DNA of 32,895 bases. It comes from a bacterium. Its GTDB lineage: Bacteria; Patescibacteriota; Minisyncoccia; UBA6257; JACOXY01. Under the pieces are notes generated by a model. That model saw only the letters and a program-made list of their open reading frames with translations, was not told where the DNA came from and made no database searches. The stretch is from assembly GCA_030680955.1 (NCBI GenBank), contig JAUXUB010000031.1, positions 1-32,895 on the forward strand, given 5' to 3'. Of this stretch, positions 146-32,895 are shown one piece after another. Numbering within the stretch: the stretch's first letter is position 1; every line of letters begins with the position of its first letter. The translations under genes and the position numbers were made by a program.

Positions 146-535
146 TTAACTATTTTTAAGAATATCTATTAACTTACTACCAAGATTTTCAAGATCTTTA
201 TCTTTTCGTAAATACGCAACCGCCCCAAGTTCGTGAGCAAGATTTTCTTCATTTATGGTTCCTGGCCAAGGCGCTGATAAACTAGTTAGAAATGCAACTT
301 TAATTTTTTTAAGTTCCGGGTGGCTTTTTAGATCTATTATGGCCTCTGTGCCACTGATCCTCGGCATGTTTATATCCAATAAAATCAAATCTGGCTTAAG
401 AGCCATTGCCTTTTCTAGCATGTGCTCCGCTTCATTTGTTATCTCTACTCTAAAACCAGCTTTTTCAAGCTTGTCAGTAATAATTTCTAGTATATCAGCT
501 TCATCATCGACAACTAGAATGAGGGGCTTATACAT
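146..535 (-). CDS. Stand-alone response regulator receiver (CheY-like)
   Basis: ILVVDDE, PDLILLDINMP (phospho-Asp), FLTS, GAVAYLRK; no output domain. Confidence 0.93.
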   Translation of the reverse strand: MYKPLILVVDDEADILEIITDKLEKAGFRVEITNEAEHMLEKAMALKPDLILLDINMPRISGTEAIIDLKSHPELKKIKVAFLTSLSAPWPGTINEENLAHELGAVAYLRKDKDLENLGSKLIDILKNS

Positions 536-3430: not shown

Positions 3431-3817
3431 TCATAATCCGTTTTGTGCTTTTATATCATTAATTATATCTCCAATACTAAACTCATGTTTTGGATAATGT
3501 TTATTTGCACCCAATCGCATATATTCATCTACGGTTTCCTGGTCCGCAGTAACTGAAACAATATATACCGGAATTTTCTTAAATTTTTCGTCTTTTTTAA
3601 TTATTTTTAAAAAATCGAGGCCCGTTTCATCCTCTAAAAGTAAGTGGTCAAGCCAAATTAAGTCTACCCAACCAATATCTTTAAGGGCATTCAATGCTTG
3701 CTTGGCACTTCTTGCAGTAACCACATCAAAACCACTTAAAACTAATTTTTTCTGAAGCGCCATCAAAAGAGGCGTTTCGTCTTCTACCACTAAAATTGAT
3801 TTTTTATTATCTGTCAT
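3431..3817 (-). CDS. Stand-alone response regulator receiver
   Basis: ILVVEDE, VDLIWLDH, TGLDFL, IVSV, LGANKHYPK. Confidence 0.88.
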   Translation of the reverse strand: MTDNKKSILVVEDETPLLMALQKKLVLSGFDVVTARSAKQALNALKDIGWVDLIWLDHLLLEDETGLDFLKIIKKDEKFKKIPVYIVSVTADQETVDEYMRLGANKHYPKHEFSIGDIINDIKAQNGL

Positions 3818-3919: not shown

Positions 3920-4960
3920 TTATAATTTTTTCCTTTCTATAGATAATTTTCCCCAACGATTAGAATTAAACTGTTTCTTCGTGAGGATTCCTTCCTTTGC
4001 GCCAACATATTCTACCACAGAAGTAGCATTCGCAGAACCTAACCGAATTGCGTATTCTATATCCGCTGGTGCCCAGCTTGCAGCTTTTAGCTTGTAGCTT
4101 TTAGCATTCCTCATAAGTCCCGCCACAAACCCTGAACCAAAGGCATCTCCTGCGCCAGTTCTGTCTGCAACTTGCTTCTCCTTATAAGTACCAGCTTTAT
4201 ATAAATAAACTCCATCTGAAACCAGAACGCCTCGAGGACCATCGCTCATAACTGCAATTCCTCCAATGGATCGATTAAATTCATAAAAAAGTTTTTGCTC
4301 GTCTATTGAATCCATTCCCATTAAAAGTCCAATCTCTTCACGATTACCTTTTACTAGAGTTAATTTTTTCAAAATAGGTTCTAATTTTTTTCTTCCCATA
4401 CTTAAATAATGGCTAGAAAGATCAATGGCAATTCGTGCGCCATTTTTGTGTAGCGCACTAACCATGTTTTCCATTACTTTAAAATCAATATTTCCGGGCA
4501 CAATATATGCCCACCTACAATTTAGCTTTCCCTTAGGAATTTCTTTTAATTCCAAATTATTTGCAGCGCCCCGATAAACCAAAACTGTGCGCTCTCCTGT
4601 GTCAGCTAGTAGTAGTGTGGAATATCCGGTTCCAAATTTTTTATCTTTCATTGCGAGAGTCGTTACGCCTTCCTTTTTTAAATCTTGAACAATTCCTTCG
4701 CCCGGTCTATCATCTCCAATTTTAAAAATAGAGGCGGTCTTATATCCTTGACGCGCAAACGTTACAGCGGCATTTGTGGCGCCTCCACCTGAAGTCAAAA
4801 CTGGTTTCTCTACTTCAATTTTTCCTCCCCAGACAAAACATTCAGCCACTCCACCAAAAATACCAATATCTTTCAAGTTTTCATTTCGAAACTCCTTAAA
4901 GTAACGGCTCTTTAAAAAAACATCGCGCGTTGCTGTTCCAATTGTAATAACGTCATACAT
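3920..4960 (-). CDS. PfkB/ribokinase-family carbohydrate kinase
   Basis: GGGATNAA and DRTGAGDAFGSGF signatures. Confidence 0.92.
   Translation of the reverse strand: MYDVITIGTATRDVFLKSRYFKEFRNENLKDIGIFGGVAECFVWGGKIEVEKPVLTSGGGATNAAVTFARQGYKTASIFKIGDDRPGEGIVQDLKKEGVTTLAMKDKKFGTGYSTLLLADTGERTVLVYRGAANNLELKEIPKGKLNCRWAYIVPGNIDFKVMENMVSALHKNGARIAIDLSSHYLSMGRKKLEPILKKLTLVKGNREEIGLLMGMDSIDEQKLFYEFNRSIGGIAVMSDGPRGVLVSDGVYLYKAGTYKEKQVADRTGAGDAFGSGFVAGLMRNAKSYKLKAASWAPADIEYAIRLGSANATSVVEYVGAKEGILTKKQFNSNRWGKLSIERKKL
4073..4107. repeat. In-frame heptamer array (NNAGCTT x5) inside the pfkB-family gene
   Basis: ccagctt gcagctt ttagctt gtagctt ttagcat; encodes NAKSYKLKAASW. Confidence 0.75.
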
Positions 4961-5887: not shown

Positions 5888-6880
5888 TCACTTTCTGCGG
5901 ATAACTTTTCTAACAGCCCGTATTATGTCCTTCGCCCCCATCCCGTATTTTTCTAAAAGTTGAGAGGGCAATCCAGATTCTCCAAAAGTATTTTGCATAC
6001 CAATAAATTCTATCGGTGTGGGCGCATGTTTTGCTAAAGCTTCGGCAACTGCTCCTCCTAAACCACCAATTACTTGATGTTCCTCTACTGTAACAACCGC
6101 GCCGCATTTCTTTGCCCATTTTGAAATTTCTTTTTCATCAAGTGGTTTAATGGTGTGGCAGTTTAAAACAACTGTACCAATCTTTTCTTTCTCAAGTTCA
6201 CGAGCAGCAAGCATAGCGTTATATAAAAGTGAACCGCAACCTATGATTACACACACTGGTTTTTTTGACATCCAAAATACTTCCGCTTTTCCAGGCACAT
6301 AAGGAGTCTCATCAGTTGTAAAAACTGGAGTTTTTTCTCTTCCAAGTCGAATATATATCGGACCCCAAATTTTTGCCGCCATTATCGTAACTTTTTTTGC
6401 CTCTATCATATCAGCCGGTACAAAAACTTTCATATTGGCAATAACACGCATGGTAGCAATATCCTCAATTGCCTGATGAGTGGCGCCATCAGGTCCAACA
6501 GAAATCCCTGCATGAGATCCTATAATTTTTACATTAGAATTATTGTAAGCAATAGTAGTTCTAATTTGCTCCCAATTTCTTCCCGGAGAAAAAGTCGCAT
6601 ACGATGAAATAAATGTAACTTTGCCAGACACTCCAAAACCAGAACCAACAGTTGCCAAATTTTGTTCAGCCACGCCAATTTCAAAAAATCGTTCTGGGTA
6701 TTTTTTAGCAAAAGCTTCAATGCGAGTGGACTCGGTTAGATCAGCACAGAGTGCAACAACGTTGGGATTTTCATCTCCAGCTAAAACCAAACCATCACCA
6801 AAACCATTGCGAGTTGGCTTTTGTTCTAGGTCATTTTCGAATATTTTTGGTGAAAGATTTGCGCTAGGATAAATTGGCAT
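5888..6880 (-). CDS. Transketolase, C-terminal subunit (split gene)
   Basis: EIGVAEQN, GPDGATHQ, YIRLGR, TIKPLD, VEEHQVIGGLG. Confidence 0.95.
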   Translation of the reverse strand: MPIYPSANLSPKIFENDLEQKPTRNGFGDGLVLAGDENPNVVALCADLTESTRIEAFAKKYPERFFEIGVAEQNLATVGSGFGVSGKVTFISSYATFSPGRNWEQIRTTIAYNNSNVKIIGSHAGISVGPDGATHQAIEDIATMRVIANMKVFVPADMIEAKKVTIMAAKIWGPIYIRLGREKTPVFTTDETPYVPGKAEVFWMSKKPVCVIIGCGSLLYNAMLAARELEKEKIGTVVLNCHTIKPLDEKEISKWAKKCGAVVTVEEHQVIGGLGGAVAEALAKHAPTPIEFIGMQNTFGESGLPSQLLEKYGMGAKDIIRAVRKVIRRK

Positions 6881-6907
6881 AAAAATAAATTTAACTGCAA
6901 ATATAAA

Positions 6908-7792
6908 TTAATGCTCACTTTGAATTTTTCTCCCAAGTGCCTGAAGTTCTTCAAGTGCTCTCCCTGCCTGTTCTGATTTAGGTACAATATTTTCTGGTCC
7001 TTCGCCAGGCGGCGTTCCATGCCATCTATAATCTCCTTCCATAAAAGAAACCCCTTTGCCTGGAATGGTGTGCGCAATAATTACAGTAGGTTTTTCATAA
7101 ATTGCCTGTGCCTCGTATACAGCGTCCACAAATTGCTCTATGTTATGGCCATTAACTTCAATGGTATGCCAGCCAAACGCTTCCCATTTATCTCTAAAAG
7201 GTTCGAGTGGCATTATGTTTTCTGTATTCCCATCTATTTGAATATTATTTCTATCTATTATTGCGGTAATATTGCTTAATTTATATTTTCCAGCAAGCAT
7301 TGCTCCTTCCCATGTGTTTCCGGAGTCGCATTCACCATCAGACATCATGCAATAAAAATGATTCTTCTTTTTATCAAGACGAGAAGCTAGAGCCATTCCA
7401 CAAGTCTGCGAAAGCCCAGAACCGAGTGGACCAGAAGTAGATTCAATCCCCGGAAGAACCTGACGATGTGGATGCCCCTGAAGGCGTGTATTTATTTTTC
7501 GGAGAGTCTTAAGTTCTGCTTTCGGAAAGTATCCGGCGAAGGCCATTGTAACATATAGCACTGGACAAATGTGTCCATTAGAAAGTAACAATCTATCTCG
7601 TTCCGGCCAATCTGGATTATTTGGATCATGTTTCAAAACATGAAAATACATGGCAGTAAAAATATCCGCCATACCAAGTGGTCCAGCAGTGTGACCAGAT
7701 TTAGCCTCCGCGAGAGTCAAAATTATAGTCTGCCGAATTTCATTCGCCAGCACTTCTAACTTTTTTAATTTTTCTTCATGAAGTATTTCCAT
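6908..7792 (-). CDS. Transketolase, N-terminal (TPP-binding) subunit
   Basis: SGH, DRLLLSNGH, LQGHP, GPLGSG, SDGE...DRN, TIPGKG. Confidence 0.95.
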   Translation of the reverse strand: MEILHEEKLKKLEVLANEIRQTIILTLAEAKSGHTAGPLGMADIFTAMYFHVLKHDPNNPDWPERDRLLLSNGHICPVLYVTMAFAGYFPKAELKTLRKINTRLQGHPHRQVLPGIESTSGPLGSGLSQTCGMALASRLDKKKNHFYCMMSDGECDSGNTWEGAMLAGKYKLSNITAIIDRNNIQIDGNTENIMPLEPFRDKWEAFGWHTIEVNGHNIEQFVDAVYEAQAIYEKPTVIIAHTIPGKGVSFMEGDYRWHGTPPGEGPENIVPKSEQAGRALEELQALGRKIQSEH

Positions 7793-7889: not shown

Positions 7890-8183
7890 CTACGCTCTTC
7901 TCCTAAGACGCTTGTAGATCTTATCACGGTTATCTACAGCCAAAAGTTTAATCGTATGAGTAGAAAGAAATTTAAAACCAACTCGATAATCGCGCGTAAT
8001 GCGAAAAGAAAACATCCCCTGAAGTGGTGCGCTAAGAGGCTTTGTGTGAAGCCTAGAATCAAAGACATCTTCCTCAAGAATTTCTATAAGTTCTGCTAGT
8101 TTACTCTGTGATTCTTCGGGGAGCTTGCGTACGTCCTTAAGGAAGTCCTTGTCATATACAATCTCATTTCTTTGATCTGACAT
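7890..8183 (-). CDS. RelE/ParE-superfamily toxin
   Basis: FLKDVRKL...LHTKPL...FSFRITRDYRV...RDKIY; small and basic; overlaps the upstream small ORF. Confidence 0.85.
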   Translation of the reverse strand: MSDQRNEIVYDKDFLKDVRKLPEESQSKLAELIEILEEDVFDSRLHTKPLSAPLQGMFSFRITRDYRVGFKFLSTHTIKLLAVDNRDKIYKRLRRRA

Positions 8184-8388
8184 GCTTTAGAAAAGATTCT
8201 TTACCTGCAAATTTATAAAGCGATTTTTTGCCTTGAGCTCGCAAAAGCATCTGTTTTACAAAAGATTCCTCATATTCACCTTCTGGATCATTAAGGGGCG
8301 TGAATAAAAATTCTCTCATTTCTCGAATGTCATTTTTTAGATCTCCAACTTCTCTATTGAGTTTTTTTATAATAACTTGCGTACTCAT
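8164..8388 (-). CDS. Probable antitoxin of the RelE-like toxin
   Basis: 74 aa, overlaps the toxin start, DPEGEY motif, TGGTATAGT 9 nt upstream of ATG 8388. Confidence 0.7.
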   Translation of the reverse strand: MSTQVIIKKLNREVGDLKNDIREMREFLFTPLNDPEGEYEESFVKQMLLRAQGKKSLYKFAGKESFLKHVRSKK

Positions 8389-8481
8389 AACATAAAAACT
8401 ATACCAATTTATAATATGAACCACAAGGATTATTTGAAATATGTTTTAGCACTTATTTTACATAGTTATCTTTAACGGAAT

Positions 8482-10400: not shown

Positions 10401-11627
10401 TTAATACCCAAAATCACTCACAAACGAATAAACGTTCCTTGCGGTGCTATCCATCACTTTTAAGACAAGCGCATAAGTGGTCGATGCATAATTAGGTATA
10501 AATGTTGGGCCAGGAACCGTTGTAGAGGAAGTGCCTCCAATCAAAGTACCAGAAGCATTACTTAATTGTGGACAAGGTACGGTGCTGGATGGATTTGAAA
10601 TATAACAACTATTCCACGACCAATTAAATGAGCTCAAATCACCATCCACGTCTTTCGCCCAAGCGCCACCATGAGTATGTACAACACCAATAGGAATATA
10701 ATGCTGCGAACCGGCGTTAGCAGTCGGGGAACTCTTAACTATTGGGGAAGGCGTAGGATATGGAGTTGGGGTTGGGGTAGCCACAGTATAAGTAAATTCT
10801 ACTTTTGTGGCGTAGCCTGCTGTAACAGAAAAAACCTTACTACAACTACCATTCACACAAGTTACGGCAGTCGAGCTTCCAACTGTGCAATCCGACTGCG
10901 CTCCGCTTAAAAACTGACAAGACCCTGCTTTTTTAGTATAACCGCTTAAATCAGTAACATAAGCAGTATGAGTGCCTGGAGTTTTACTCTGAAACCATGC
11001 TGGATTATATGAATTGCTACCAGCTTGGTTAGCTAGCGCATCAACGTTTGCTGAAGTTGTGACTGTTCCCGAAAGTCCAGACCTTAAAATTTCTACTTCA
11101 CCAAAAGTTGGTGTTGGAGTTGGAGATACAATTGGTGTTGAAGAAGGTGTCGGCGTTACACACGAAAGTATTCCGCAAGAAAGACAGGAACCACCAACAT
11201 AACTACAATTAACAGGTGGGGTGGCACAAGAAACACAAGATGCTGGTGTCGTCGCATTTGCAATATTAGAAAAGACTGAGAGTTTGTTTCCGCTAACAGT
11301 TTTTGCCTTATAATAATATGTTGTGGAAATACTTAGGCCTTGATCCGAATAACTTGTGCTATTTGCTGGGGTAGTCGCTATCAATTTAAATCCAATACTT
11401 TTATCTAGGCTCCGATAAATGTTATATCCAGTTTCGTTAGAATTAGTATCATACCAAGTAAGATTAATTTGCGTTGTAGAGATCGGAGTAGCACTTAAGA
11501 CTGTAGGCTCATAAAGTTTTGCTATTGTAGTAAGCACGCTATTTCCCCCTTGTCCCATTAATAATACACTTCCCAAACCAATCAATACTACCACACCTAC
11601 AAGTAAATATATTTTTGACATAGGCAT
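10401..11627 (-). CDS. Membrane-anchored or secreted surface protein with fibronectin type III domain, Cys-rich motif, Pro/Thr linkers and C-terminal PKD-like domain
   Basis: N-terminal hydrophobic helix; INLTW...NETGYNIYRS...YSDQGL...YYYK; TPTP linkers; PTANAG...DVDGD...W...LKVMD. Confidence 0.8.
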   Translation of the reverse strand: MPMSKIYLLVGVVVLIGLGSVLLMGQGGNSVLTTIAKLYEPTVLSATPISTTQINLTWYDTNSNETGYNIYRSLDKSIGFKLIATTPANSTSYSDQGLSISTTYYYKAKTVSGNKLSVFSNIANATTPASCVSCATPPVNCSYVGGSCLSCGILSCVTPTPSSTPIVSPTPTPTFGEVEILRSGLSGTVTTSANVDALANQAGSNSYNPAWFQSKTPGTHTAYVTDLSGYTKKAGSCQFLSGAQSDCTVGSSTAVTCVNGSCSKVFSVTAGYATKVEFTYTVATPTPTPYPTPSPIVKSSPTANAGSQHYIPIGVVHTHGGAWAKDVDGDLSSFNWSWNSCYISNPSSTVPCPQLSNASGTLIGGTSSTTVPGPTFIPNYASTTYALVLKVMDSTARNVYSFVSDFGY

Positions 11628-11700
11628 AAAATAAATTTTAGTTAATAATAGAAGCGACAAATATAGATTACACTATACAGACAGGGGGGCAATGTGGATA

Positions 11701-24498: not shown

Positions 24499-25212
24499 AT
24501 GAGACCACAAATTGTACCAGGAAATATTTATCATATTTTAAATAGGGGTGTGGATAAACGTAAAATATTTCTAGATGATATGGATTATCTTAGATTTATT
24601 CACGATCTTTTTGAGTTTAATGATGAAAATCCCTCGCTAAGTAATAGCCACCTTTTCAAAGCAATAAAAACATTCGAACCCCAATATTCGGACTTGCGAA
24701 GTCCGAATATTAGTAGGGAACCAAGAAAACTATTAGTGGAAATTTTAGTTTTTTGTTTAATGCCTAATCATTATCATCTTATGGTCAGACCTTTAACTGA
24801 GAAGGGATTGGTAAAATTCATTAAAAAACTAAATATTGGTTACGCCAATTACTTTAATCAAAAATATGAAAGGAGTGGAGCATTATTCCAAGGACGATAT
24901 AAATCAATTGCAATTACAAACGATGCGCATTTTATACATCTTCCATACTATATCCATATGAATCCATTAGATCTATATATGCCAGAGTGGCGCAAGAGGG
25001 AACTTAAAGACTACAATAATGCATTTGCTTTTTTAGAAAAATATAGGTGGAGTAGTTTTCAGGATTATATTGGAAAAAAGAATTTCCCATCAATTACACA
25101 GAGAGATTTCTTATTAAAATTCTTTAATGGACCAGAAGAACATAAAAAATCAATACTTAAGTGGTTAAAAGATTTTGATCCTGAAGAAACAAGGGCCTTG
25201 ACACTCGAATAG
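24499..25212 (+). CDS. REP-associated tyrosine transposase (RAYT, HUH Y1 family)
   Basis: YHILNRG...IF, CLMPNHYHL (HUH), GALFQGRYK, YIHMNP (catalytic Tyr), YRWSS; flanked by palindromes. Confidence 0.92.
   Translation: MRPQIVPGNIYHILNRGVDKRKIFLDDMDYLRFIHDLFEFNDENPSLSNSHLFKAIKTFEPQYSDLRSPNISREPRKLLVEILVFCLMPNHYHLMVRPLTEKGLVKFIKKLNIGYANYFNQKYERSGALFQGRYKSIAITNDAHFIHLPYYIHMNPLDLYMPEWRKRELKDYNNAFAFLEKYRWSSFQDYIGKKNFPSITQRDFLLKFFNGPEEHKKSILKWLKDFDPEETRALTLE
24683..24711. repeat. REP palindrome inside the transposase ORF (in frame)
   Basis: AATATTCGGACTTGCGAAGTCCGAATATT, read as QYSDLRSPNI. Confidence 0.93.
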
Positions 25213-25359: not shown

Positions 25360-28300
25360 TTAACGGGGGCGGGGTTGTTTGAGTTGCTCAAGGATATTCA
25401 AGCGGTCTTTTAGGAAATTATTTTTTATTTTAAGTTCGCGCAATGATTCAATTGCGTGCATCAAGAAAGCGGTGCCATAATCAACTCGCTTGAAACCTTT
25501 ATCGTCAGTTGAAACCAGTTCTGGGAATACTTTTTCTACGTCTTGCGCAATTAAACCAAGATTTTGAGATTCACCTTTTAAATGTAATTGAGGATATTCA
25601 TTAGCGCGCCAATTGAAATATGTCGGCTTTAATTGAATGAGTTTATCTAAAGAGCCAGTAAGCGGAATAAGATTTTTCTTGAGGCGTAAATCAGAATTGC
25701 AAGTTCCAACTGGAGAGCCAGGCGTCATAGGAGTTGAGGTGGCACGAACACCATCAAATCTTTTAACGCAACCGAACGACCCAGAAGTACCAATGCGCAT
25801 ATCACCACTTATCATAAGTGCTTGACTAGGTTCAACATTTCCAATTCCAACGAAACCAGAGGCACTTAATGTCATTAGATTTGTGAAAGACGAAGACATA
25901 ACCCTAAGGTAATTGTTATTTGCTGGCCCACTACCGTAAAAATCAGCCACGGCAACAAAAGTGTTATCGCCATAAGCAACACCGCGCCAATCGTTATCAG
26001 CTGGATTAAGCCGGGATGTCCACGTAATTCCATCAGGCGAGGTCATAATACGATTACCTGAACCACCAGTACTTACGGCTACAAATAAACCACTGCCATA
26101 AGCGATTGCTTGCCAATTATTATCAGCCGCAGCGATTCGCATAGTCCATGTTCCAGTTCTTCCTGTAGGCGAAGTCATAACTGCATTTAAATCACCTACA
26201 GCAGTGTTCGCCACAGCCACAAAAGTGGTGGTGGCGACACCATTTATAATTGGAGTGCCGTAAGTTACGGCTTTCCACAATTTATCTAATGTAGGCGAGG
26301 CAGTTGCTTGCAATGCCCAAGTTATGCCATTGGGCGAAGTCATAACTCGTTGACCCAATCCATCTTTTGAAACGGCCACAAAAGTGGTGGTGGCGACACC
26401 ATTTATAATTGGAGTGCCGTAAGTGACAGATTGCCATGAATTGTCTGGGGTGGCGGCACCAACAAAAGACCAATCTTGACCATTATTAGTTGAATACATA
26501 GCATGTTTTGTGCCTCCAGTACTTGCTACAGCAACAAAAGTTGGAGTTTTAATAGTATTTATAATTGGTTCGCCATAAGTAACAGATTGCCAATTTGCGT
26601 CTCCATCAATCTCTATATCTGGGGATAGTGCCCAAATAATACCATCAAGCGAAGTCATAACACGGTCACCACGACCAAGCGTGCCATCATTTGCCACAGC
26701 CACAAAGACTCCATTGCCATATGTAACAGATTGCCATGGATGACTAGGGGGGGTGTCATTTGACTTGCGGGTGGTCCAAGCTATGCCATCGGGAGAGGTC
26801 ATAACTCTACTATTTGTTCCATCACTTGCAACGGCTACAAAAAGACCCTCACCATAAGTGACAGATTGCCATTTGTCATTATCCGGAGTAACTTGTTCTG
26901 CCCAGCTTCCATTAAAAACCGTCGCAGTCATTGCTTGATAACCAGAAGTATCACCAACAGCCACAAAAGTATTATTGGCATAAGTAACGCTATTCCAAGT
27001 ATTAATTGGAGACGTAGCCCTTGTTGTCCAAGTGATACCATCAGATGAGTACATAACACGCGTGGTAGGCAAATTAGAAGCTACCGCTACAAAACCACCA
27101 TTGCCGTAAACAACAGACTTCCAACTATGTGCAGTAGTCGTATTCCCGGGAAACCAACTATTACCATCAGTCGAATACATCGCCTGCCCACCAGTTTCCA
27201 CGGCTACAAAACGATTAAGAACACTACTAAAAGCGATAGAAGACCAAGCTTTTGATTTGGTATCAGCGTCAGTGCTAAGAGTCCAATTAGTTTTGCCATT
27301 AAGAGACCACATAGCGCGTCCATTAGCACCGCTAGATGACACAGCGACAAAGCGATCAGTGCCATAAGTAACAGACTCCCAATTGTAGTTTTCGGGAGAA
27401 ACTCTATTTGTCCATGGATCAGTTATTCCCCCATCCGATGAAGTCATTATGTTATTATTAGAAGTCGCACCAACAGCCACGAAGAGATCATTGCCATACG
27501 TTACGCTTTGCCAAGTGCCAGCGGTAGTAGTCGCGCGAGTTGTCCAAATTATGCCATCAGGAGAAGTCATAACACGATTATCAACACCGTTTGAAGATAC
27601 CGCTACAAAAAGACCATTTGGTGTTGCACCGCTTGAACCACTTTTACCAAAAGCTACAGATTTCCAATTATTATTAGCTGGAGTAACGCGATTTGTCCAG
27701 TTAACACCATCAGGAGAAGTCATAACATGATTAAAATTACCTGCGGAACTGCCATTTGCCACTGCTACGAAAAGACCATTACCATATGTTACAGAATTCC
27801 AAGAGCCATTATTGGGTGTAGTACGAGAAGTCCAATCATTGCCTATCGCATTATTGCCACCAAGTTGAAGATGTAGAGTGTTATCATTTTTAGCACTCAA
27901 AATCCAAAAAGGATTAGACTGACTCAAGGGCACCCCACTATAAAAGAGAGTCATCGCTGGAGTAGAACCATAAATTTGCAAACTGGTCTGCGGAGTTGTT
28001 GTACCAATTCCTACATTGCCACTGGCACTAATACTTAACCCTCCACTGCCTTTGGTAGACATAGAAATATAGCCATTGCTCCCCGCACCACCAGCAAGCA
28101 ACCGAATGCCTTTTATAATTGAAGTTGTACTAGACCCAATTTCAATTTGGTCTAATGCATTGACATTTAAAATTGGCTGGTTGCTGCCAGTAAAAAATCT
28201 TCCAAAAATCGGCTGGTTATTACTGTCTATAAATAATGAACCAGATTGAGGATCCCCACGAGTTACGGTACCAGAACCCCCAAAAATAGTTGCCCCTTGC

Positions 28301-30312
28301 GTAACGTGGAGCGCGGCTCCAGGAGTCGTTGTTCCAATTCCCAAAATTCCAGTGCTACTGCCCATTATACTCATACCACCTTGGAAGATATTATTGTGCG
28401 GAGTTATTTGGTAGTCAGCTTTGCCGGAAATCATAACACATCTACTCGGCCCACCACTTTTACAAGACGTAGCATTATTATATGAAGTCACAGCTACAAA
28501 AATACCATTGCCGTAGGTGACGGAATCCCAAGCATTGTCAGCAGCAGAATTGCGAAGAGTCCAATTGATACCATCTGACGAAGTCATAACACGATTCCCA
28601 GTGCCAGTAGGCGCTACAGCAACAAAAAGACCATTGCCGTAGGTGACGGAATTCCAAGCATTGTTGACTGGGGTAATACTAGAAATCCATGGGATAGTTC
28701 TGCCACCATCAGGTGAAGTCATTGCTTGATTAGGGCTACCATTTCCAGCAACAGCCACAAATAAACCATTGCCGTAGGTGACGGAATTCCATAAGATTTG
28801 AGGAGGGTTAGTTATTGGGAATGACCAATTAATACCATCCAAGGAATACATAACTCTTTGGGCGCCAGAAGAAGCCACAGCTACAAAGAGACCATTGCCG
28901 TAGATGATAGAAAACCATTGATTATTTGCGGGTGTATCACGAAGAGTCCAATTAATACCATCTGGTGAAGTCATAACACATTTATCTTGGCCAGCCATGC
29001 AAGTACCATAATCACTTTCCATTACAACCACAAACAAGCCATTGCCATAGGTTATATACCGCAAATAATTTAGGGCGGAATTGCGACGAGTCCAATTGAT
29101 ACCATCTGGTGAAGTCATAACTCCATTACTAACACCAATCCCAGCCACTGCAACAAATAAACCATTGCCATAGGTAACAGATCGCCATCCAAGATCTGCG
29201 GCAGAATCACGAGCAGTCCAATTTATGCCATCTGGTGAAGTCATGACGCGTTGCCCAGCAACAGCACCATTATCTGCCACAGCAACAAATAAACCATTGC
29301 CATAGGTAATCCCAATCCAATTTTTATCAGTTGAGGTTGAAAGAGTCCACTCCGTTCCCTTCGAAATAATATTTCCAACTACTTCTAATTTTTCACCAGG
29401 AATCCATGTAGTATTTGTCCCGATTAAAACGTTACCGCTTGTGCTTGCTATAGTTAAAATATCTTTTTCCAATCCCGTAGTACTCGCGAGTATCCGAAAA
29501 TTATTCTGAAAATTATCTAGAACGAAATACTTATTGCTAGAAGTTCCCAAAAGCTTTAGCTGGCCGCCTTCATCGGCAGAATTTATATTACCCAGGACCA
29601 AACGATCAGAAGAATCATCTACATCTGGCTGTACATCTCTTGCAGTACTTACTCCAATTCCCACAACACCAGAAAATCTTGCATTCCTCCATCTTAGAAG
29701 TGTAGTGGTAGAGCCAATGTTTTGCGTGTCGGAAACCAAAGGAACTAAATTATCATCAAAAACTGCCGCGGTAATTCTGTCTAGTGTCGTAACAAATTGT
29801 TTTGTTGATGAGCTTACGCCCGTAGCAGTAGGATTATAATAAAGCGTAAAACTTACTTGAACTGCATCTTTGGAAGGCGGATTAAAAATTCTTATAAATG
29901 AAACGGTACTGGAGACAACAGAAACTTTATCTGTTGTAAGGAGAGAAGTGGAAGCTGTACCTATTCCATATAAAGTTGAGGATCCTGTATCCATATACAT
30001 ATTTGTTCCAGAGGCATAGTAAACAACATAATCACGACTACTTGACGCGAACCTTAAAACTAATTTTGGAGATGGGGTGGAAGTGGAAATATCTATAATA
30101 CTTGAATCTCTAACATCGCGACTTATTCTCTCTAAAATAAATCTAGCTTGTTCAGAAACTTCTCGCGCTGAAGTACTTTCATTTTGAATTCTAAGAGTAG
30201 TAAGAAGTGTGCCAACTGCAAGGCCTGCCACAATTACAACAATGCCAGTATATAAAATAGCCTCTAATAATGTGAAACCGTTATTTATTTTGTTTAATTT
30301 TATGTAATTCAT
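25360..30312 (-). CDS. Giant type IV pilin-anchored fibre adhesin: prepilin N-terminus, fibre shaft, three 7-repeat propeller modules, C-terminal Peptidase S74 chaperone
   Basis: NG|FTLLEAILY N-methylation motif; GNVGIGTTTP-type shaft motifs; 21 W..VTYGNGLFVAV...MTSPDG..W repeats; SDLRLKKN...GLIAQDVEKVFPELV...VDY plus coiled coil. Start is ATG 30312 or GTG 30324. Confidence 0.88.
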   Translation of the reverse strand: MNYIKLNKINNGFTLLEAILYTGIVVIVAGLAVGTLLTTLRIQNESTSAREVSEQARFILERISRDVRDSSIIDISTSTPSPKLVLRFASSSRDYVVYYASGTNMYMDTGSSTLYGIGTASTSLLTTDKVSVVSSTVSFIRIFNPPSKDAVQVSFTLYYNPTATGVSSSTKQFVTTLDRITAAVFDDNLVPLVSDTQNIGSTTTLLRWRNARFSGVVGIGVSTARDVQPDVDDSSDRLVLGNINSADEGGQLKLLGTSSNKYFVLDNFQNNFRILASTTGLEKDILTIASTSGNVLIGTNTTWIPGEKLEVVGNIISKGTEWTLSTSTDKNWIGITYGNGLFVAVADNGAVAGQRVMTSPDGINWTARDSAADLGWRSVTYGNGLFVAVAGIGVSNGVMTSPDGINWTRRNSALNYLRYITYGNGLFVVVMESDYGTCMAGQDKCVMTSPDGINWTLRDTPANNQWFSIIYGNGLFVAVASSGAQRVMYSLDGINWSFPITNPPQILWNSVTYGNGLFVAVAGNGSPNQAMTSPDGGRTIPWISSITPVNNAWNSVTYGNGLFVAVAPTGTGNRVMTSSDGINWTLRNSAADNAWDSVTYGNGIFVAVTSYNNATSCKSGGPSRCVMISGKADYQITPHNNIFQGGMSIMGSSTGILGIGTTTPGAALHVTQGATIFGGSGTVTRGDPQSGSLFIDSNNQPIFGRFFTGSNQPILNVNALDQIEIGSSTTSIIKGIRLLAGGAGSNGYISMSTKGSGGLSISASGNVGIGTTTPQTSLQIYGSTPAMTLFYSGVPLSQSNPFWILSAKNDNTLHLQLGGNNAIGNDWTSRTTPNNGSWNSVTYGNGLFVAVANGSSAGNFNHVMTSPDGVNWTNRVTPANNNWKSVAFGKSGSSGATPNGLFVAVSSNGVDNRVMTSPDGIIWTTRATTTAGTWQSVTYGNDLFVAVGATSNNNIMTSSDGGITDPWTNRVSPENYNWESVTYGTDRFVAVSSSGANGRAMWSLNGKTNWTLSTDADTKSKAWSSIAFSSVLNRFVAVETGGQAMYSTDGNSWFPGNTTTAHSWKSVVYGNGGFVAVASNLPTTRVMYSSDGITWTTRATSPINTWNSVTYANNTFVAVGDTSGYQAMTATVFNGSWAEQVTPDNDKWQSVTYGEGLFVAVASDGTNSRVMTSPDGIAWTTRKSNDTPPSHPWQSVTYGNGVFVAVANDGTLGRGDRVMTSLDGIIWALSPDIEIDGDANWQSVTYGEPIINTIKTPTFVAVASTGGTKHAMYSTNNGQDWSFVGAATPDNSWQSVTYGTPIINGVATTTFVAVSKDGLGQRVMTSPNGITWALQATASPTLDKLWKAVTYGTPIINGVATTTFVAVANTAVGDLNAVMTSPTGRTGTWTMRIAAADNNWQAIAYGSGLFVAVSTGGSGNRIMTSPDGITWTSRLNPADNDWRGVAYGDNTFVAVADFYGSGPANNNYLRVMSSSFTNLMTLSASGFVGIGNVEPSQALMISGDMRIGTSGSFGCVKRFDGVRATSTPMTPGSPVGTCNSDLRLKKNLIPLTGSLDKLIQLKPTYFNWRANEYPQLHLKGESQNLGLIAQDVEKVFPELVSTDDKGFKRVDYGTAFLMHAIESLRELKIKNNFLKDRLNILEQLKQPRPR

Positions 30313-30334
30313 ACTTGTTGCCACTAATTAATTT

Positions 30335-30383
30335 ATCCCGTTAGAAGTAGGACTCGAAACGAGTCCGCAACTTCTAATGGGAT
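30335..30383. mobile_element. Short ATCCCGTTAGAAGT...ACTTCTAATGGGAT element
   Basis: 14-bp inverted ends (1 mismatch) with inner GGACTCG-AAA-CGAGTCC hairpin; overlaps the stop of the upstream gene. Confidence 0.75.
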
Positions 30384-32895
30384 TCCAACGCCTTTATTCG
30401 CGCTTGGATAGAATCATTTTCTGCGTTTAGTTCTGTAACCGATTGGATTACACGCATTAAAAGATCCGAGCTGTAGTTAACTCTCTTAAATCCGTCTTCG
30501 CCAGTTGAAACCAGTTCTGGGAATACTTTTTCTACGTCTTGCGCTATTAAGCCAAGATTTGTTATATCACCGCTTAGATATAACTGTGGAAATTCATCAG
30601 CACGCCAATTAAAATATGTTGGTTTTAATTCCACAAGTTTATCTAGCGAGCCAACTAGTGGTACAAGATTTTTCTTAATGCGGAGGTCGGAAGGGCAAGC
30701 CCCCCACCAAGAAGTATAGTTAAAGTTTTTAACACAACCTGATGCCGCAGAAGTGCCAATGCGCACATCGCCAAAAACTTGAAGTTTATCAGCTGGGGTC
30801 GAAGTTCCAATCCCAACATTGCCATTTTTATCAATTACTAAATTAGCTTTATAAAAAGAATAGTCTTTAGTGGTTTCAATATAAAAATAACCGCTGCTGC
30901 TGGCGCGAAATACCCAAGCTGGATTGCCATCACCTAAAGGTGCATCGCTATCAAAAAAAGATAGGCGCGGATTAGAACTTACAATTTGTAAAATACTCTG
31001 TGGTGATGTTGTTCCAATTCCCACCCTACCACTTGAGTCAATTGTCATTCTTGGAGCGACGTTGCCATTAGTCCAAAAAGAAATAGTACTTGATGGTGTA
31101 GCGCCAGAACCATTGCCGGCAAGCAACCGAATTCCTTTTATAACCGAATCATTTGTGCTAGTTCCAATATCAATTTGATCGGCTGAATTAACATTCAAAA
31201 TAGGGCGATGGTAGCCTAATCCACCCCCACCAATAAACTTCCCCATAATTGGCTGATTATTAGTATTCAAAAATAGTGAACCTGTTTGAGAATCAGTTCG
31301 AGTTACAGTAGATGTCCCACCAATAATAACACCGCCAACAATATGGAGTGCTCCTTCAGGAGTTGTTGTGCCAATACCTAAAATTCCATTGCTCGGCCCC
31401 ATAATGCTCATCCCTCCTTGGTAGATGTTATTAGTTGGAGTTATTTGATAGTCTAGTTTGCCGGAGACAATTACCTTTTCATTCACATCCATATAAGACA
31501 CGGCTATGAAGAGTCCATTACCATAAGTAACGTCATTCCAATGTCCCGAAAAAGGCGTGGTGCGAAGCGTCCAATTGAAACCATCAGGTGAAGTCAAAAT
31601 ACATTTAGGTGCGCCTCCAGCGCAAGGTGCATAACCATACATCCCAGCCACAAAGAGACCGTTGCCGTACGTAGGTGGACCTAAGGTTGAAGCGGGTGTG
31701 TTTCTAGGTAACCAATCGATACCATTTGATGAAGTCATTACACAATTATATGGGCTTGCTCCACAATCCCACGCCGTCGACACAAATTTTCCATTGCCAA
31801 AAGTAACCCCATTCCATTCACCTGTTGGAGTAACATTACTTAAATTCCAAATAGCGCCATCCATAGAATACATAGCACGTTTAGTAGCATTAAAACCACC
31901 GCCATTTGCCACAGCTACAAAGCGCCCATTTCCATAAATAATATCACTCCAAATATTAGTTGGCGTAGTTATAGGCGTCCAATTGATACCATCAGGACTA
32001 GTCATGACACAATTACTCTGAGCTACCGATGGTAAACATGAGGTACTTGCTTCCTGACCAGCTACGGCTACAAATAAGCCATTACCATAAGTTACTGAAT
32101 ACCAAGCAGATGCGGCGGCAGCTGCACGAAGCGTCCAATTTTTACCGTCAGGCGAAGTCATGATACATCTATTATCAACGCCTTTCTTACAAGTACCAAA
32201 AGTAGAAGTTGCGACAGCCATAGCTACATAAAGTCCATTGCCGTAAGTGACAGTATTCCATAAATTACTAGCAGGAATAGTACTTGTTGCCCAATTCATA
32301 CCATCAGAGCTTGTCATAACACAATATTGTGTACCAGCAGCTTTCGTGCAAGGCGCTGTACCAGAGTTTGCACTAGCAACAGCAACAAAAATTCCATTAC
32401 CATAAATAACAGATTTCCAATCTTGTCTAACTGGTATGTTATTACTTGCTTTCCACTCCGTCCCTTTGGAAATAATATTTCCAACTACTTCTAGTTTTTC
32501 GCTTGGTGCCATAGTAGATGAAGTTCCAATTAAAACATTTCCGTAATCTGTTACGCTTAATCTTGTTGATAATTGCCCTGTGCTTGTGGTCATTATTCGC
32601 AAAGTATTACTTGAGTTATCAATTACTGTATATTGGCCAGCAAGTGGTCCCAAGAGTTTTAATTGTCCACCCTCGGACGAAGTTAAAGGATTTATTGGGC
32701 CTAAAACCATTCTATCAGAATAATTTATCCCTTCCTCAAACGAAAATAGTGTGGCACCATCAAAATCTTTCCCAACCCCAATATTTCCAGTAAAACGGCC
32801 ATTCTTCCACTGTTTTAAATTCGTGCCAACATTTTTTTGATTCCCACTTTGCTGTGGAATTAAATCAGAATCAAAAACAGATGCGAAAACATTAC
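30374..32895 (-). CDS. Paralogous fibre adhesin with one 7-repeat module and C-terminal Peptidase S74 chaperone (5' end outside window)
   Basis: Frame stays open from 32710 to the window edge (ASVFDSDLIP...NVGT...WKNGRFTGNIGVG, matching AAVFDDNLVP...WRNARFSGVVGIG of the neighbour); SDLRIKKN...GLIAQDVEKVFPELV. Confidence 0.88.
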   Translation of the reverse strand, partial: NVFASVFDSDLIPQQSGNQKNVGTNLKQWKNGRFTGNIGVGKDFDGATLFSFEEGINYSDRMVLGPINPLTSSEGGQLKLLGPLAGQYTVIDNSSNTLRIMTTSTGQLSTRLSVTDYGNVLIGTSSTMAPSEKLEVVGNIISKGTEWKASNNIPVRQDWKSVIYGNGIFVAVASANSGTAPCTKAAGTQYCVMTSSDGMNWATSTIPASNLWNTVTYGNGLYVAMAVATSTFGTCKKGVDNRCIMTSPDGKNWTLRAAAAASAWYSVTYGNGLFVAVAGQEASTSCLPSVAQSNCVMTSPDGINWTPITTPTNIWSDIIYGNGRFVAVANGGGFNATKRAMYSMDGAIWNLSNVTPTGEWNGVTFGNGKFVSTAWDCGASPYNCVMTSSNGIDWLPRNTPASTLGPPTYGNGLFVAGMYGYAPCAGGAPKCILTSPDGFNWTLRTTPFSGHWNDVTYGNGLFIAVSYMDVNEKVIVSGKLDYQITPTNNIYQGGMSIMGPSNGILGIGTTTPEGALHIVGGVIIGGTSTVTRTDSQTGSLFLNTNNQPIMGKFIGGGGLGYHRPILNVNSADQIDIGTSTNDSVIKGIRLLAGNGSGATPSSTISFWTNGNVAPRMTIDSSGRVGIGTTSPQSILQIVSSNPRLSFFDSDAPLGDGNPAWVFRASSSGYFYIETTKDYSFYKANLVIDKNGNVGIGTSTPADKLQVFGDVRIGTSAASGCVKNFNYTSWWGACPSDLRIKKNLVPLVGSLDKLVELKPTYFNWRADEFPQLYLSGDITNLGLIAQDVEKVFPELVSTGEDGFKRVNYSSDLLMRVIQSVTELNAENDSIQARIKALESH

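What the first reader, a model, noticed from the sequence alone, without database searches (positions are those of the whole stretch)
25360..32895. Type IV pilin fused to a phage-tail-fibre-like adhesin with a self-cleaving S74 chaperone, in a tandem array
Seen: G|FTLLE prepilin motif and minor-pilin-like domain, GNVGIGT-type shaft repeats, propeller modules, then SDLRLKKN...GLIAQDVE plus coiled coil. The upstream paralog shares the post-pilin architecture; its N-terminus is outside the window. Established: Peptidase S74 domains trimerise phage tailspikes and fibres and autocleave at the Ser of this motif, and prepilin peptidase cleaves G|FxxxE. Inference: a doubly processed trimeric phage-style receptor-binding fibre mounted on a type IV pilus, possibly as a heterotrimer of paralogs, used by an episymbiont to select host cells. 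This is the best candidate for an undescribed system in the window.
Basis: partly seen in the sequence, partly recalled or inferred. Interest (0 to 1): 0.88.

Follow-up and report, generated by a model that had tools for sequence, protein, structure and literature searches.

The report
Pilin fused to phage-like trimeric fibre
A tiny, probably host-dependent bacterium encodes a type IV pilus subunit whose outer part is built like a phage tail fibre with three propeller domains and a self-removing folding domain, making it a good candidate for how such bacteria recognise their host cells.

Summary
Window 25360-30324(-) encodes a 1650-aa protein (start ATG 30312). It has a prepilin leader (MNYIKLNKINNG|FTLLE) and a roughly 170-aa head that models as a GspJ/XcpW-type minor pilin. 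After the head come a conserved fibre base, 21 propeller blades (7+14) separated by GxVGIG shaft repeats, and a C-terminal Peptidase_S74 domain with an intact SDxxxK dyad (S1544/K1549). The C-terminal 175 aa are predicted to form a trimer (0.89, best control 0.00).

The fusion is not a misassembly. The same head-fibre-S74 gene occurs in at least 7 of 201 genomes of the order, across 5 families. The locus is not a prophage.

The head belongs to a large Patescibacteria-wide pilin family (1251 representatives), most of whose long members carry fibre shafts. A true phage contig carries a 46%-identical propeller module.

The upstream paralog most likely starts with a plain signal peptide, not a pilin. 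A heterotrimer is not required.

The kind is already partly known. The pilin+S74 architecture was catalogued in 2021, read as "peptidase activity". Propeller-bearing minor pilins mediate host binding in cultured Saccharibacteria, and Bdellovibrio uses S74 fibres on its surface. Verdict: a new variant of a known kind. Display on the pilus and a role in host recognition are inferred, not shown.

The parts
30277..30312 (-). Class III (prepilin) leader MNYIKLNKINNG, ending in Gly(-1). The likely true start is the ATG at 30312; the listed ORF's GTG at 30324 lies 4 codons upstream.
   Evidence: homologs start at MNY/MNL; DNA
29770..30276 (-). Mature pilin module (aa 17-185). It comprises F+1, E+5, a hydrophobic alpha1N, a long alpha1 helix and a beta-sheet head of GspJ/XcpW/PilW type.
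   Evidence: AF2 pLDDT 87.7 with helix 15-69 plus 8 strands. VIA-align: 3nje Z 11.0, 5g23 Z 10.9, 3ci0_J Z 9.7, 2ret Z 9.4, 7b7p Z 7.9. The family has 1251 representatives.
29350..29769 (-). Conserved fibre base module (aa 186-325). It runs from the AAVFDxxLxP junction motif through the first GxVGIG shaft repeat to EKLEVVGNIISKGTEW, and is shared by all paralogs, with or without a pilin head.
   Evidence: Alignment A1 invariant columns. The junction motif is present in 119 of 148 head-family representatives.
28405..29349 (-). Propeller 1 (aa 326-640), seven 4-stranded blades with S.DG..W / W.SVTYGNGLFVAV repeats.
   Evidence: AF2 pLDDT 83.8, pTM 0.86. Foldseek gives generic 7-blade propellers: Ycf48 TMq 0.62-0.64, Kelch. 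Pfam EPTP.
27820..28404 (-). Inter-propeller shaft (aa 641-835), with the SGKxDYQITPxNNIFQGGMSIMG exit motif and two GxxGIGTTTP repeats.
25870..27819 (-). Propellers 2 and 3 (aa 836-1485, 14 blades). This insertion is absent from the 953-967-aa homologs. The blades are 47-52% identical to propeller 1 and to each other, so it is not a recent duplication.
   Evidence: No tandem DNA repeat. A Logan contig spans 26395-30531 with 0 differences.
25696..25869 (-). Terminal shaft (aa 1486-1543) with GFVGIG, leading to the predicted cleavage site before or at S1544.
   Evidence: Interface residues 1483-1555 in the trimer model.
25363..25695 (-). Peptidase_S74 intramolecular chaperone domain (aa 1544-1654) with S1544/K1549 (SDLRLK), GLIAQDVEK and a C-terminal coiled coil. 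The stop codon is at 25360-25362.
   Evidence: Pfam E 1.5e-12. S, D and K are invariant in 6 of 6 sequences. Weak PDB sequence matches to 6f45 and 7dc3. Trimer score 0.89 against 0.00.
30374..32893 (-). Upstream paralog, at least 839 aa, cut at its 5' end by the contig end. It has base module, one 7-bladed propeller, shaft and S74 (aa 735-795). It lies 62 nt upstream of the pilin-fibre gene on the same strand.
   Evidence: The same-genus synteny partner has a signal-peptide N-terminus. It aligns from residue 35 of that protein.

Best explanation
The gene encodes a modular minor type IV pilin. Its N-terminal module is a GspJ/PilW-class pilin: a prepilin leader, cleaved by the genome's single Peptidase_A24, followed by the alpha1 helix and head. 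Grafted onto it is a phage-type fibre consisting of a conserved base, three seven-bladed propellers per chain joined by GxVGIG shaft segments, and a C-terminal S74 intramolecular chaperone.

The proposed sequence of events is as follows. The protein is inserted into the membrane by its alpha1N helix with the fibre outside. The S74 domains of three chains associate and nucleate trimerisation of the shaft. The Ser1544-Lys1549 dyad then cuts the chaperone off. The resulting trimer, with three pilin stems, is taken up by one of the cell's type IV pilus machines as a priming or tip unit, in the way CofB/TcpB trimers are thought to be. The pilus thus presents up to nine propellers, which bind a surface glycan or protein of the host cell.

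Shown here: the domain architecture, the pilin fold by model, conservation of the dyad, the predicted trimer of the C-terminal part, recurrence of the fusion, and homology to phage fibre modules. Inferred: both cleavages, the trimer along the whole length, incorporation into a pilus, and the ligand.
For: Architecture.

Pilin identity:
- E+5 is invariant in 38 of 38 and 66 of 66 family members.
- N_methyl is found in 43 of 66 long family members.
- The AF2 head model has pLDDT 87.7. The top 5 of 48,161 chains are all minor (pseudo)pilins, Z 7.9-11.0.
- A 47%-identical paralog is the fourth pilin of a PilB-PilC-pilin operon on contig C32.
- The genome has 1 Peptidase_A24, 7 T2SSE and about 5 T2SSF genes.

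S74:
- SDxxxK is invariant in 6 of 6 sequences. The dyad's role is taken from passages of PMC3742443 and PMC10769870.
- Homotrimer of aa 1480-1654: ipSAE 0.89 in 3 of 3 runs, best of 3 controls 0.00, at least 92% of contacts shared, pLDDT at least 82. The mark was reached by 20 of 30 solved pairs and 1 of 23 single chains. The calibration was for two copies, and the pass may be from memory of solved S74 trimers.

Recurrence:
- The same head+fibre+S74 occurs in P0004-P0006, 69-74% identical in the head.
- Head and S74 lie in one ORF in 7 genomes of 5 families among 201 searched. This is a lower bound, because 179 head matches were not listed.
- 15 of 66 long head-family representatives carry S74.
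- Minimal members such as P0071 (386 aa) are just head + roughly 100-aa stalk + S74. This makes sense only if trimerising the pilin itself is the point.
- Other modules on this head include C1q, YadA_head and phage Collar. That these are trimer-forming is recalled, not tested.

Phage link: phage contig L066 (terminase, portal, major head protein) encodes a 764-aa protein 46% identical over the propeller and its entry and exit shaft motifs.

Precedents:
- CofB and TcpB are tip minor-pilin trimers (PMC8179133, passages).
- TM7x PilX2 is a minor pilin with a heptabladed propeller, and its deletion halves host binding (PMC11623550, passages).
Against: - No pilus gene lies in the 32.9-kb window.
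- In 4 other genomes with the fusion, no PilB gene lies on the fusion's contig or within about 40 kb of it. The gene is therefore an orphan, and no particular pilus can be assigned.
- Pfam N_methyl is below its cut-off for this protein (15.7 against 21.2 bits).
- Foldseek found no PDB match at E <= 0.001 for the head. The pilin fold call rests on VIA-align Z 9-11, only moderately above the Z 7-8 typical of unmatched models.
- Only the last 175 aa were tested as a trimer. Whether three pilin stems can enter one filament is untested.
- Two paralogs carry the same fibre on a plain signal peptide, so the fibre clearly works without a pilus.
- There is no expression evidence.
Confidence: 0.6

Rival explanations
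1. This is a membrane-anchored surface fibre, not a pilus component. The pilin-like N-terminus serves only as a class III signal/anchor, so the trimeric fibre stands on the cell membrane like its signal-peptide paralogs, comparable to Bdellovibrio MAT fibres on the predator's surface.
For: Two paralogs (C17, 881 aa; G012 upstream gene, 882 aa) carry the same base, propeller, shaft and S74 on an ordinary hydrophobic N-terminus. The gene is an orphan away from pilus operons, both here and in 4 other genomes. MAT fibres with S74 sit on the cell surface of a predatory bacterium (PMC10769870, passages).
Against: A complete globular minor-pilin head of about 170 aa, 47% identical to an operon-encoded minor pilin, is retained. 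A simple anchor would not need it. The head family is N-terminal in all 150 listed representatives and carries fibre shafts in 91 of 107 long members, which points to a dedicated pilin-fibre coupling.
Confidence: 0.22
2. The fibre is a heterotrimer with one pilin chain plus the two signal-peptide paralogs, so that a single pilin stem enters the filament.
For: This genome has exactly three S74 fibre genes and the same-genus genome has three S74 matches. The tandem order signal-peptide fibre then pilin fibre, with gaps of 62 nt and 7 nt, is conserved. Base, shaft and S74 modules are 52-64% identical between the paralogs.
Against: In 5 of the 7 genomes with the fusion (G010, G040, G052, G081, G148) it is the only S74 match. 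The pilin chain has 14 extra blades that the partners lack. The homotrimer of its C-terminus scores 0.89.
Confidence: 0.12
3. This is a phage or prophage tail-fibre gene, or a remnant of one, with no cellular role. Alternatively it is an assembly chimera.
For: Modules hit phage proteins: 297 phage records, with the propeller and the shaft+S74 hitting separately. Two IMG/VR contigs carry 54-58%-identical segments. An IS200-like transposase lies next to the gene.
Against: No terminase, portal, capsid or tail gene lies in the contig. The neighbours are RecG, tRNAs, glycolysis and pentose-phosphate genes. No phage record covers at least 80% of the paralog (0 of 297). The junction between head and fibre is present in three further protein clusters and in the same-genus genome. 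It is also spanned by a 4137-nt contig of a second assembler with 0 differences, although that contig comes from what may be the same sample.
Confidence: 0.04

Closest known systems
Modular type IV pilins (S. sanguinis PilB/PilC; InterPro architecture IPR012902-IPR030392, Raynaud et al. 2021, PMC8179133)
   Same: An N-terminal pilin module carries a functional module grafted on the C-terminus. The pilin+S74 combination is listed there among the 15 most frequent architectures (passages read). S. sanguinis PilB (7b7p) is the fifth-best structural match of the head, Z 7.9.
   Different: That paper reads S74 as 'peptidase activity'. Here the S74 domain sits at the end of a fibre with shaft repeats and propellers, so it is read as a trimerising, self-removing chaperone. 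PilB/PilC modules are monomeric vWA or lectin domains. Dataset S1 of that paper could not be seen because supplements are closed.
Saccharibacterial PilX2 of Nanosynbacter lyticus TM7x (PMC11623550; bioRxiv 10.64898/2026.10.06.756255)
   Same: [quoted passage not shown] It is needed for host binding (10.6% to 4.6% of hosts bound) and binds host cell wall (passages read).
   Different: PilX2 is described with RCC1-type blades and a non-canonical signal peptide. In the passages read, 'trimer' and 'tail fib' have 0 occurrences in both papers. Here there is a canonical G|FTLLE leader, three propellers, shaft repeats and S74. Sequence homology to PilX2 was not tested because the sequence was not on hand.
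Trimeric tip minor pilins CofB/TcpB of type IVb pili
   Same: These minor pilins form homotrimers through their C-terminal domains and are placed at the pilus tip, as cited in PMC8179133 (passage). They give a precedent for three pilin stems in one tip unit.
   Different: They trimerise through beta-repeat and beta-sandwich domains without S74, autocleavage or propellers. They are diderm T4b systems. The head here is GspJ-like. CofB/TcpB are not among the 50 listed VIA matches, which excludes nothing.
Phage tail fibres and tailspikes with the C-terminal intramolecular chaperone (endosialidase K1F, T5 L-shaped fibre, S16 gp37), and MYRF
   Same: PF13884 with the SDxxxK Ser-Lys dyad, C-terminal to a trimeric beta-rich shaft, and a predicted trimer. 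The dyad and trimer-dependent cleavage are taken from PMC3742443.
   Different: The N-terminus is a pilin instead of a virion-attachment domain. The gene is chromosomal in a cell. Folding would occur outside the cytoplasm.
Bdellovibrio MAT (mosaic adhesive trimer) fibres (PMC10769870)
   Same: They are cell-encoded phage-like trimeric fibres for recognising other bacteria. 13 of 21 end in S74 with SDxxxK. All have a conserved N-terminal beta-rich domain of about 130 aa right after the signal peptide, and capping loops with a VG..P...L-type motif (passages). The window's signal-peptide paralogs have the same layout. A Bacteriovoracaceae MAG protein shares the S74 domain (33% identity) and the GNVGIGTT.P..KL.V repeats.
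   Different: MAT fibres are not fused to pilins. The authors only raise a possible interplay with type IV pili. MATs use beta-helix prisms and varied tips rather than propellers. Homology of the N-terminal base domains was not established here.

Membership tests
Type IV pilin (class III signal peptide protein) | Short basic leader ending in Gly(-1), hydrophobic residue at +1, Glu at +5, and about 20 hydrophobic residues (alpha1N) | tested here: met
   MNYIKLNKINNG|FTLLEAILYTGIVVIVAGLAVGTLL. Glu is invariant in 38 of 38 and 66 of 66 family members. +1 is F, L or M in the close homologs.
Type IV pilin (class III signal peptide protein) | Recognition by Pfam N_methyl (PF07963) at its gathering score | tested here: inconclusive
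   This protein scores E 0.011 and 15.7 bits, below the 21.2 cut-off, but at the right place, aa 14-36 of the piece. 43 of 66 long family members hit at E <= 0.001. The C32 paralog scores 21.5 bits.
Type IV pilin (class III signal peptide protein) | Lollipop fold: a long N-terminal helix packed on an antiparallel beta-sheet | tested here: met
   The AF2 model has helix 15-69 and 8 strands, pLDDT 87.7. Best VIA matches are XcpW Z 11.0 (rmsd 3.2, 117 aligned), TTHA1219 Z 10.9, GspJ Z 9.7, EpsJ Z 9.4 and PilB Z 7.9. Foldseek gave no match at E <= 0.001. This is a model, not a structure.
Type IV pilin (class III signal peptide protein) | Cleavage and N-methylation by prepilin peptidase, and polymerisation into a filament | not testable with these tools
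   One Peptidase_A24 gene, seven T2SSE and about five T2SSF genes are present in the genome. No biochemical data.
Peptidase S74 / intramolecular chaperone auto-processing domain | PF13884 match above the cut-off, at the C-terminus | tested here: met
   aa 1544-1604, E 1.5e-12, 48.1 bits against a cut-off of 22. Whole-genome scan: 54.5 bits.
Peptidase S74 / intramolecular chaperone auto-processing domain | Catalytic Ser-Lys dyad in SDxxxK | tested here: met
   S1544-D-L-R-L-K1549. S, D and K are invariant in 6 of 6 aligned paralogs and homologs. The dyad is defined in PMC3742443 and the SDxxxK motif in PMC10769870.
Peptidase S74 / intramolecular chaperone auto-processing domain | Homotrimer formation | tested here: met
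   By prediction only. Three copies of aa 1480-1654 score 0.89 against a best control of 0.00 (3 runs, 3 controls). The pass may reflect likeness to solved S74 trimers.
Peptidase S74 / intramolecular chaperone auto-processing domain | Autocleavage at the Ser after folding | not testable with these tools
   Needs expression of the wild type and S1544A.
Bdellovibrio-type MAT fibre superfamily | Signal peptide followed directly by a conserved N-terminal beta-rich domain of about 130 aa, then a trimeric fibre | tested here: inconclusive
   The paralogs on C17 and G012 have a signal peptide followed by a conserved base of about 140 aa. The pilin fusion replaces the signal peptide with a pilin. Homology of the base to the MAT N-domain was not tested, as no MAT full-length sequence was on hand. 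A Bacteriovoracaceae relative aligned only in the shaft and S74.
Prophage tail module | Neighbouring phage structural or packaging genes | tested here: not met
   Pfam and PHROGs on 30 window ORFs found no terminase, portal, capsid, tail tube or baseplate. The only 'tail' hit is an fn3 domain at E 4.3e-5.

The most novel reading that the evidence does not exclude
A whole Patescibacteria-wide class of GspJ-like minor pilins (1251 representatives) is built to be homotrimeric. A phage-derived shaft, often with an S74 chaperone that works outside the cytoplasm as a folding checkpoint, ties three pilin stems together into a self-sufficient pilus tip and priming unit. This unit would replace the usual heteromeric minor-pilin tip complex. 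Its receptor-binding modules (propellers, C1q, Collar, lectins) would be exchanged with phages that attack the same host cells, so that episymbiont and phage share host-range determinants.
Probability: 0.25. Interest if true: 0.85.

Novelty: new variant of a known kind. Interest (0 to 1): 0.62.

Why it matters
How ultrasmall episymbiotic bacteria pick their hosts is largely open. In cultured Saccharibacteria, type IV pili and lectin-like minor pilins are the only handles so far. This locus offers a concrete, testable candidate: a pilin whose outer part is a phage-style receptor-binding fibre.

It also changes the reading of a catalogued architecture. In pilin+S74 proteins the S74 domain would be a trimerisation chaperone rather than a peptidase activity. 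That implies trimeric pilins and a possible simple solution for building a pilus tip.

The 46%-identical propeller module in a real phage points to traffic of receptor-binding modules between phages and cellular adhesins. If confirmed, the variable modules could be used to predict host range of uncultured Patescibacteria.

Tried and rejected
- Misassembly is rejected. The same junction is found in P0004-P0006 and G012, a 4137-nt Logan contig spans it, and there is no tandem DNA repeat.
- Prophage is rejected.
- Recent duplication of the propellers is rejected, as they are 47-52% identical.
- NCBIfam gave no family for either protein.
- Foldseek against PDB gave nothing at E <= 0.001 for the head. 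VIA-align wide was used instead.
- Foldseek on the propeller gave only generic propellers such as Ycf48, Kelch and WD40, so no ligand can be inferred.
- A PDB sequence search of the C-terminus gave only weak hits: 6f45 at E 0.012 and 7dc3 at E 0.4.
- Expression: no RNA holder was listed. This is no evidence either way.
- Reads: only contigs of one DNA run, which may be the source sample, could be laid. The stretch 26184-26235 is not covered by the 8 pieces shown; 4 more pieces were not shown.
- The search for the missing 5' end of the upstream paralog on other contigs found nothing.
- Pilus operon linkage: PilB lies on other contigs, or 40 kb or more away, in G010, G040, G052 and G081. G012's fusion contig is only 5.9 kb long.
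- Literature: 'intramolecular chaperone' + 'pilin' gave 6 papers, none about pilin fusions by title. 'type IV pilin' / 'intramolecular chaperone' / 'tail fiber' listed none with both of the first two terms among the 15 shown. 'chaperone of endosialidase' / 'Peptidase_S74' with pilin or CPR terms gave 0 occurrences of the S74 terms in the 25 listed of 458. 'minor pilin' / 'tail fiber' / 'trimeric' gave 3 listed, none relevant. I therefore found no paper that reads pilin+S74 as a trimeric fibre, but only this library was searched and supplements are closed.
- PMC13278184 (outline and abstract read) describes a different, donor-strand pilus and is not relevant.

Full report
WHAT IS THERE

The window is a complete 32,895-bp contig (C45) of a 1.07-Mb, 80-contig genome that is 96% complete. 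On the minus strand, 25360-30324 is one open frame of 1654 codons. Close homologs start at the internal MNY.., so the likely start is the ATG at 30312, giving 1650 aa. Residue numbers below follow the 1654-codon frame.

The N-terminus reads MNYIKLNKINNG|FTLLEAILYTGIVVIVAGLAVGTLL. This is a short basic leader ending in Gly, then Phe+1, Glu+5 and a hydrophobic helix. Pfam N_methyl finds it only below threshold (E 0.011, 15.7 against 21.2 bits).

Pfam places Peptidase_S74 at aa 1544-1604 (E 1.5e-12) and repeated EPTP-like blades. NCBIfam gives nothing.

Motif counting gives 21 blades: seven at aa 336-640 and fourteen at aa 842-1485. GxVGIG shaft motifs lie at aa 219, 659, 769 and 1490.

The upstream gene (30374-32893, minus strand, 62 nt away) is cut by the contig end. 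It has base, one propeller, shaft and S74. A third paralog of 881 aa lies on contig C17.

THE N-TERMINAL MODULE IS A REAL MINOR PILIN

- A phmmer scan of aa 5-200 against 1.84 billion representatives gave 1251 proteins at E <= 0.001 and 353 at E <= 1e-10. The match is at the N-terminus in all 150 listed proteins, which are 99-1650 aa long.
- In 201 genomes of the same order, 168 have a match, in frames of about 110 to 2040 aa.
- The window's own genome has a 47%-identical paralog of 335 aa on contig C32. It is the last of four N_methyl pilins that follow PilB and PilC.
- An AF2 model of the head, built with a 38-row alignment, has pLDDT 87.7, with a helix at 15-69 and eight strands.
- Foldseek found no PDB match at E <= 0.001.
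- VIA-align against 48,161 chains ranked five minor (pseudo)pilins first: XcpW 3nje (Z 11.0), Thermus TTHA1219 (10.9), GspJ 3ci0_J (9.7), EpsJ 2ret (9.4) and S. sanguinis PilB 7b7p (7.9). The next hit scores Z 5.6.
- The genome has one prepilin peptidase gene, seven T2SSE ATPase genes and about five PilC genes. About 19 frames carry a convincing prepilin motif, and this is the only one longer than 600 aa.

THE C-TERMINAL MODULE IS A PHAGE-TYPE FIBRE

- In the alignment of the three paralogs and three homologs, S1544, D1545 and K1549 (SDLRLK) are invariant.
- The Ser-Lys dyad and its dependence on trimer folding are described for endosialidases and MYRF (PMC3742443, passage). The SDxxxK motif with experimentally shown self-cleavage is described for Bdellovibrio Bd3182 (PMC10769870, passages).
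- Three copies of aa 1480-1654 were predicted to bind, with ipSAE 0.89 in each of three runs against 0.00 for the best of three controls. Contact agreement was at least 92% and pLDDT at least 82. The calibration mark was reached by 20 of 30 solved pairs and 1 of 23 single chains. The calibration was made for two copies, and the pass may come from memory of solved S74 trimers.
- The first propeller (aa 320-650) models as seven four-stranded blades (pLDDT 83.8, pTM 0.86). It resembles generic seven-bladed propellers such as Ycf48 (TMq 0.62-0.64) and Kelch, so no ligand can be read from it.
- In the phage collection, the propeller and the shaft+S74 of the paralog hit different phage proteins: 297 records, none covering 80%.
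- In IMG/VR, contig L066 carries terminase, portal, head protease and major head protein. It also carries a 764-aa protein 46% identical to the paralog across the propeller, including the GNVGIGTTAPGEKLEVVGNIISKGT entry motif and the SGK..NNIYQGGM.IMG exit motif.

THE FUSION IS REAL AND RECURRENT, AND THE LOCUS IS CELLULAR

- Three other protein clusters of 953-967 aa share the head at 69-74% identity, and all carry S74.
- Cross-reading the order-wide scans, head and S74 lie in one frame in G000, G012, G010, G040, G052, G081 and G148. That is seven genomes in five families. S74 occurs in 29 of 201 genomes. The count of seven is a lower bound, because 179 head matches were not listed.
- Of 66 head-family representatives of at least 520 aa, 15 have S74 and 43 have N_methyl. 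Others carry Gly_rich_2 (4), Laminin_G_3 (2), phage Collar (2), Kelch propellers, C-type lectin, YadA_head, C1q, F5/8-C or dockerin.
- A GxVGIG shaft motif follows the head in 91 of 107 representatives of at least 330 aa, against 15 of 578 frames of at least 200 aa in the genome. The AAxFDxxLxP junction motif is present in 119 of 148.
- Minimal members such as P0071 (386 aa) are just head, a stalk of about 100 aa, and S74.
- A contig from a second assembler, from a run that may be the source sample, spans 26395-30531 without a difference. There is no tandem DNA repeat, and the three propellers are only 47-52% identical.
- The rest of the contig encodes RecG, two tRNAs, an IS200-like transposase, a DPBB protein, glycogen synthase, GAPDH, RpiB, Rpe, split transketolase, PfkB, FBP aldolase, response-regulator receivers and a RelE-like toxin. 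There are no phage structural genes.
- The nearest named relative record (L026, the same contig as G012:C37) is labelled Candidatus Saccharibacteria. Fibre relatives are spread over many Patescibacteria lineages.

In the same-genus genome the tandem pair is complete. An 882-aa fibre with an ordinary hydrophobic signal or anchor N-terminus lies 7 nt upstream of the 958-aa pilin fibre. The window's upstream gene aligns from residue 35 of that protein. It therefore probably lacks about 34 residues of signal peptide, not a pilin module. The C17 paralog also has such an N-terminus and begins its mature part at the same junction motif.

A heterotrimer is not required. In G010, G040, G052, G081 and G148 the fusion is the only S74 match. 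It remains possible in this genus, where each genome has three S74 matches.

MECHANISM (INFERENCE)

The chain is inserted by its alpha1N helix and the leader is removed by the prepilin peptidase. Outside the membrane, three S74 domains nucleate the trimeric shaft and then cut themselves off at S1544. The trimer with three GspJ-like stems is used as a tip or priming unit by one of the cell's several pilus machines. The propellers bind a host surface structure.

Precedents:
- CofB/TcpB are trimeric tip minor pilins, and modular pilins are expected at the tip (PMC8179133, passages).
- TM7x PilX2, a minor pilin with a heptabladed propeller, halves host binding when deleted (PMC11623550) and binds host cell wall (bioRxiv 10.64898/2026.10.06.756255).

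Against this reading:
- The gene is an orphan away from pilus genes, both here and in four other genomes.
- The same fibre exists on plain signal peptides.
- Only the last 175 aa were tested as a trimer.
- No expression data exist.

COMPARISON AND NOVELTY

The pilin+S74 architecture (IPR012902-IPR030392) was already listed among the 15 commonest modular pilin architectures, where it was interpreted as peptidase activity (PMC8179133). Its Dataset S1 could not be read. Bdellovibrio MAT fibres are cell-encoded S74 fibres for prey recognition, and their authors only speculate on interplay with type IV pili (PMC10769870).

I found no paper in the searched library that reads pilin+S74 as a trimeric phage-like fibre. 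The finding is therefore a new variant of a known kind. It is a well-supported architecture with a plausible but untested role as a pilus-borne host-recognition fibre.

Noticed in passing
L066:7356-9650 (IMG/VR contig, 25.1 kb): A true phage contig (terminase, portal, head protease and major head protein by PHROGs) encodes a 764-aa protein 46% identical to the window's fibre propeller, including its shaft entry and exit motifs. No S74 was found in it by Pfam. It is unknown whether this phage infects the Patescibacterium or that bacterium's host.
   Followed up: partly
window 24499-25212 (+): An IS200-like Y1 transposase (PF01797, E 2.7e-9) lies convergent with, and directly downstream of, the pilin-fibre gene. 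It could bear on the mobility of the locus.
   Followed up: no
G000:C32:3351-13527 (L025): A pilus operon with two pilin-motif genes, a 326-aa ORF, PilB, PilC and then four N_methyl pilins. The last of these is the 47%-identical paralog of the fibre's head. The 1.07-Mb genome holds seven T2SSE ATPase genes in all.
   Followed up: partly
head-family representatives P0007-P0154: The same pilin head carries many other C-terminal modules: Gly_rich_2, Laminin_G_3, phage Collar, Kelch propellers, C-type lectin, YadA_head, C1q, F5/8 type C and dockerin. Several of these are known (recalled) as trimer-forming.
   Followed up: partly
L030, L034, L036, L040 (genome contigs): Close fibre relatives (44-54% in the best segment) sit in MAGs labelled Bacteroidetes, Omnitrophota and Gammaproteobacteria. 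This could be mis-binned Patescibacteria contigs or horizontal transfer.
   Followed up: no
window 146-535, 539-934, 3431-3817 (-): Three stand-alone response-regulator receiver domains (PF00072) are interspersed with glycolytic genes (FBP aldolase at 998-1870, PfkB at 3920-4960). No output domains or kinase were seen in the window.
   Followed up: no
window 5888-7792 (-): Transketolase is split into two adjacent genes, the N-terminal part at 6908-7792 and the pyrimidine-binding plus C-terminal part at 5888-6880.
   Followed up: no
window 7890-8424 (-): A RelE-like toxin (PHROG 1213, E 2.9e-12) has an overlapping 86-aa upstream ORF without a family hit. This is a possible toxin-antitoxin pair.
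   Followed up: no
window 10401-11660 (-): A 419-aa protein with one fn3 domain and no other family hit sits between rpe and rpiB. The local GC of 0.40 is higher than that of the neighbours.
   Followed up: no
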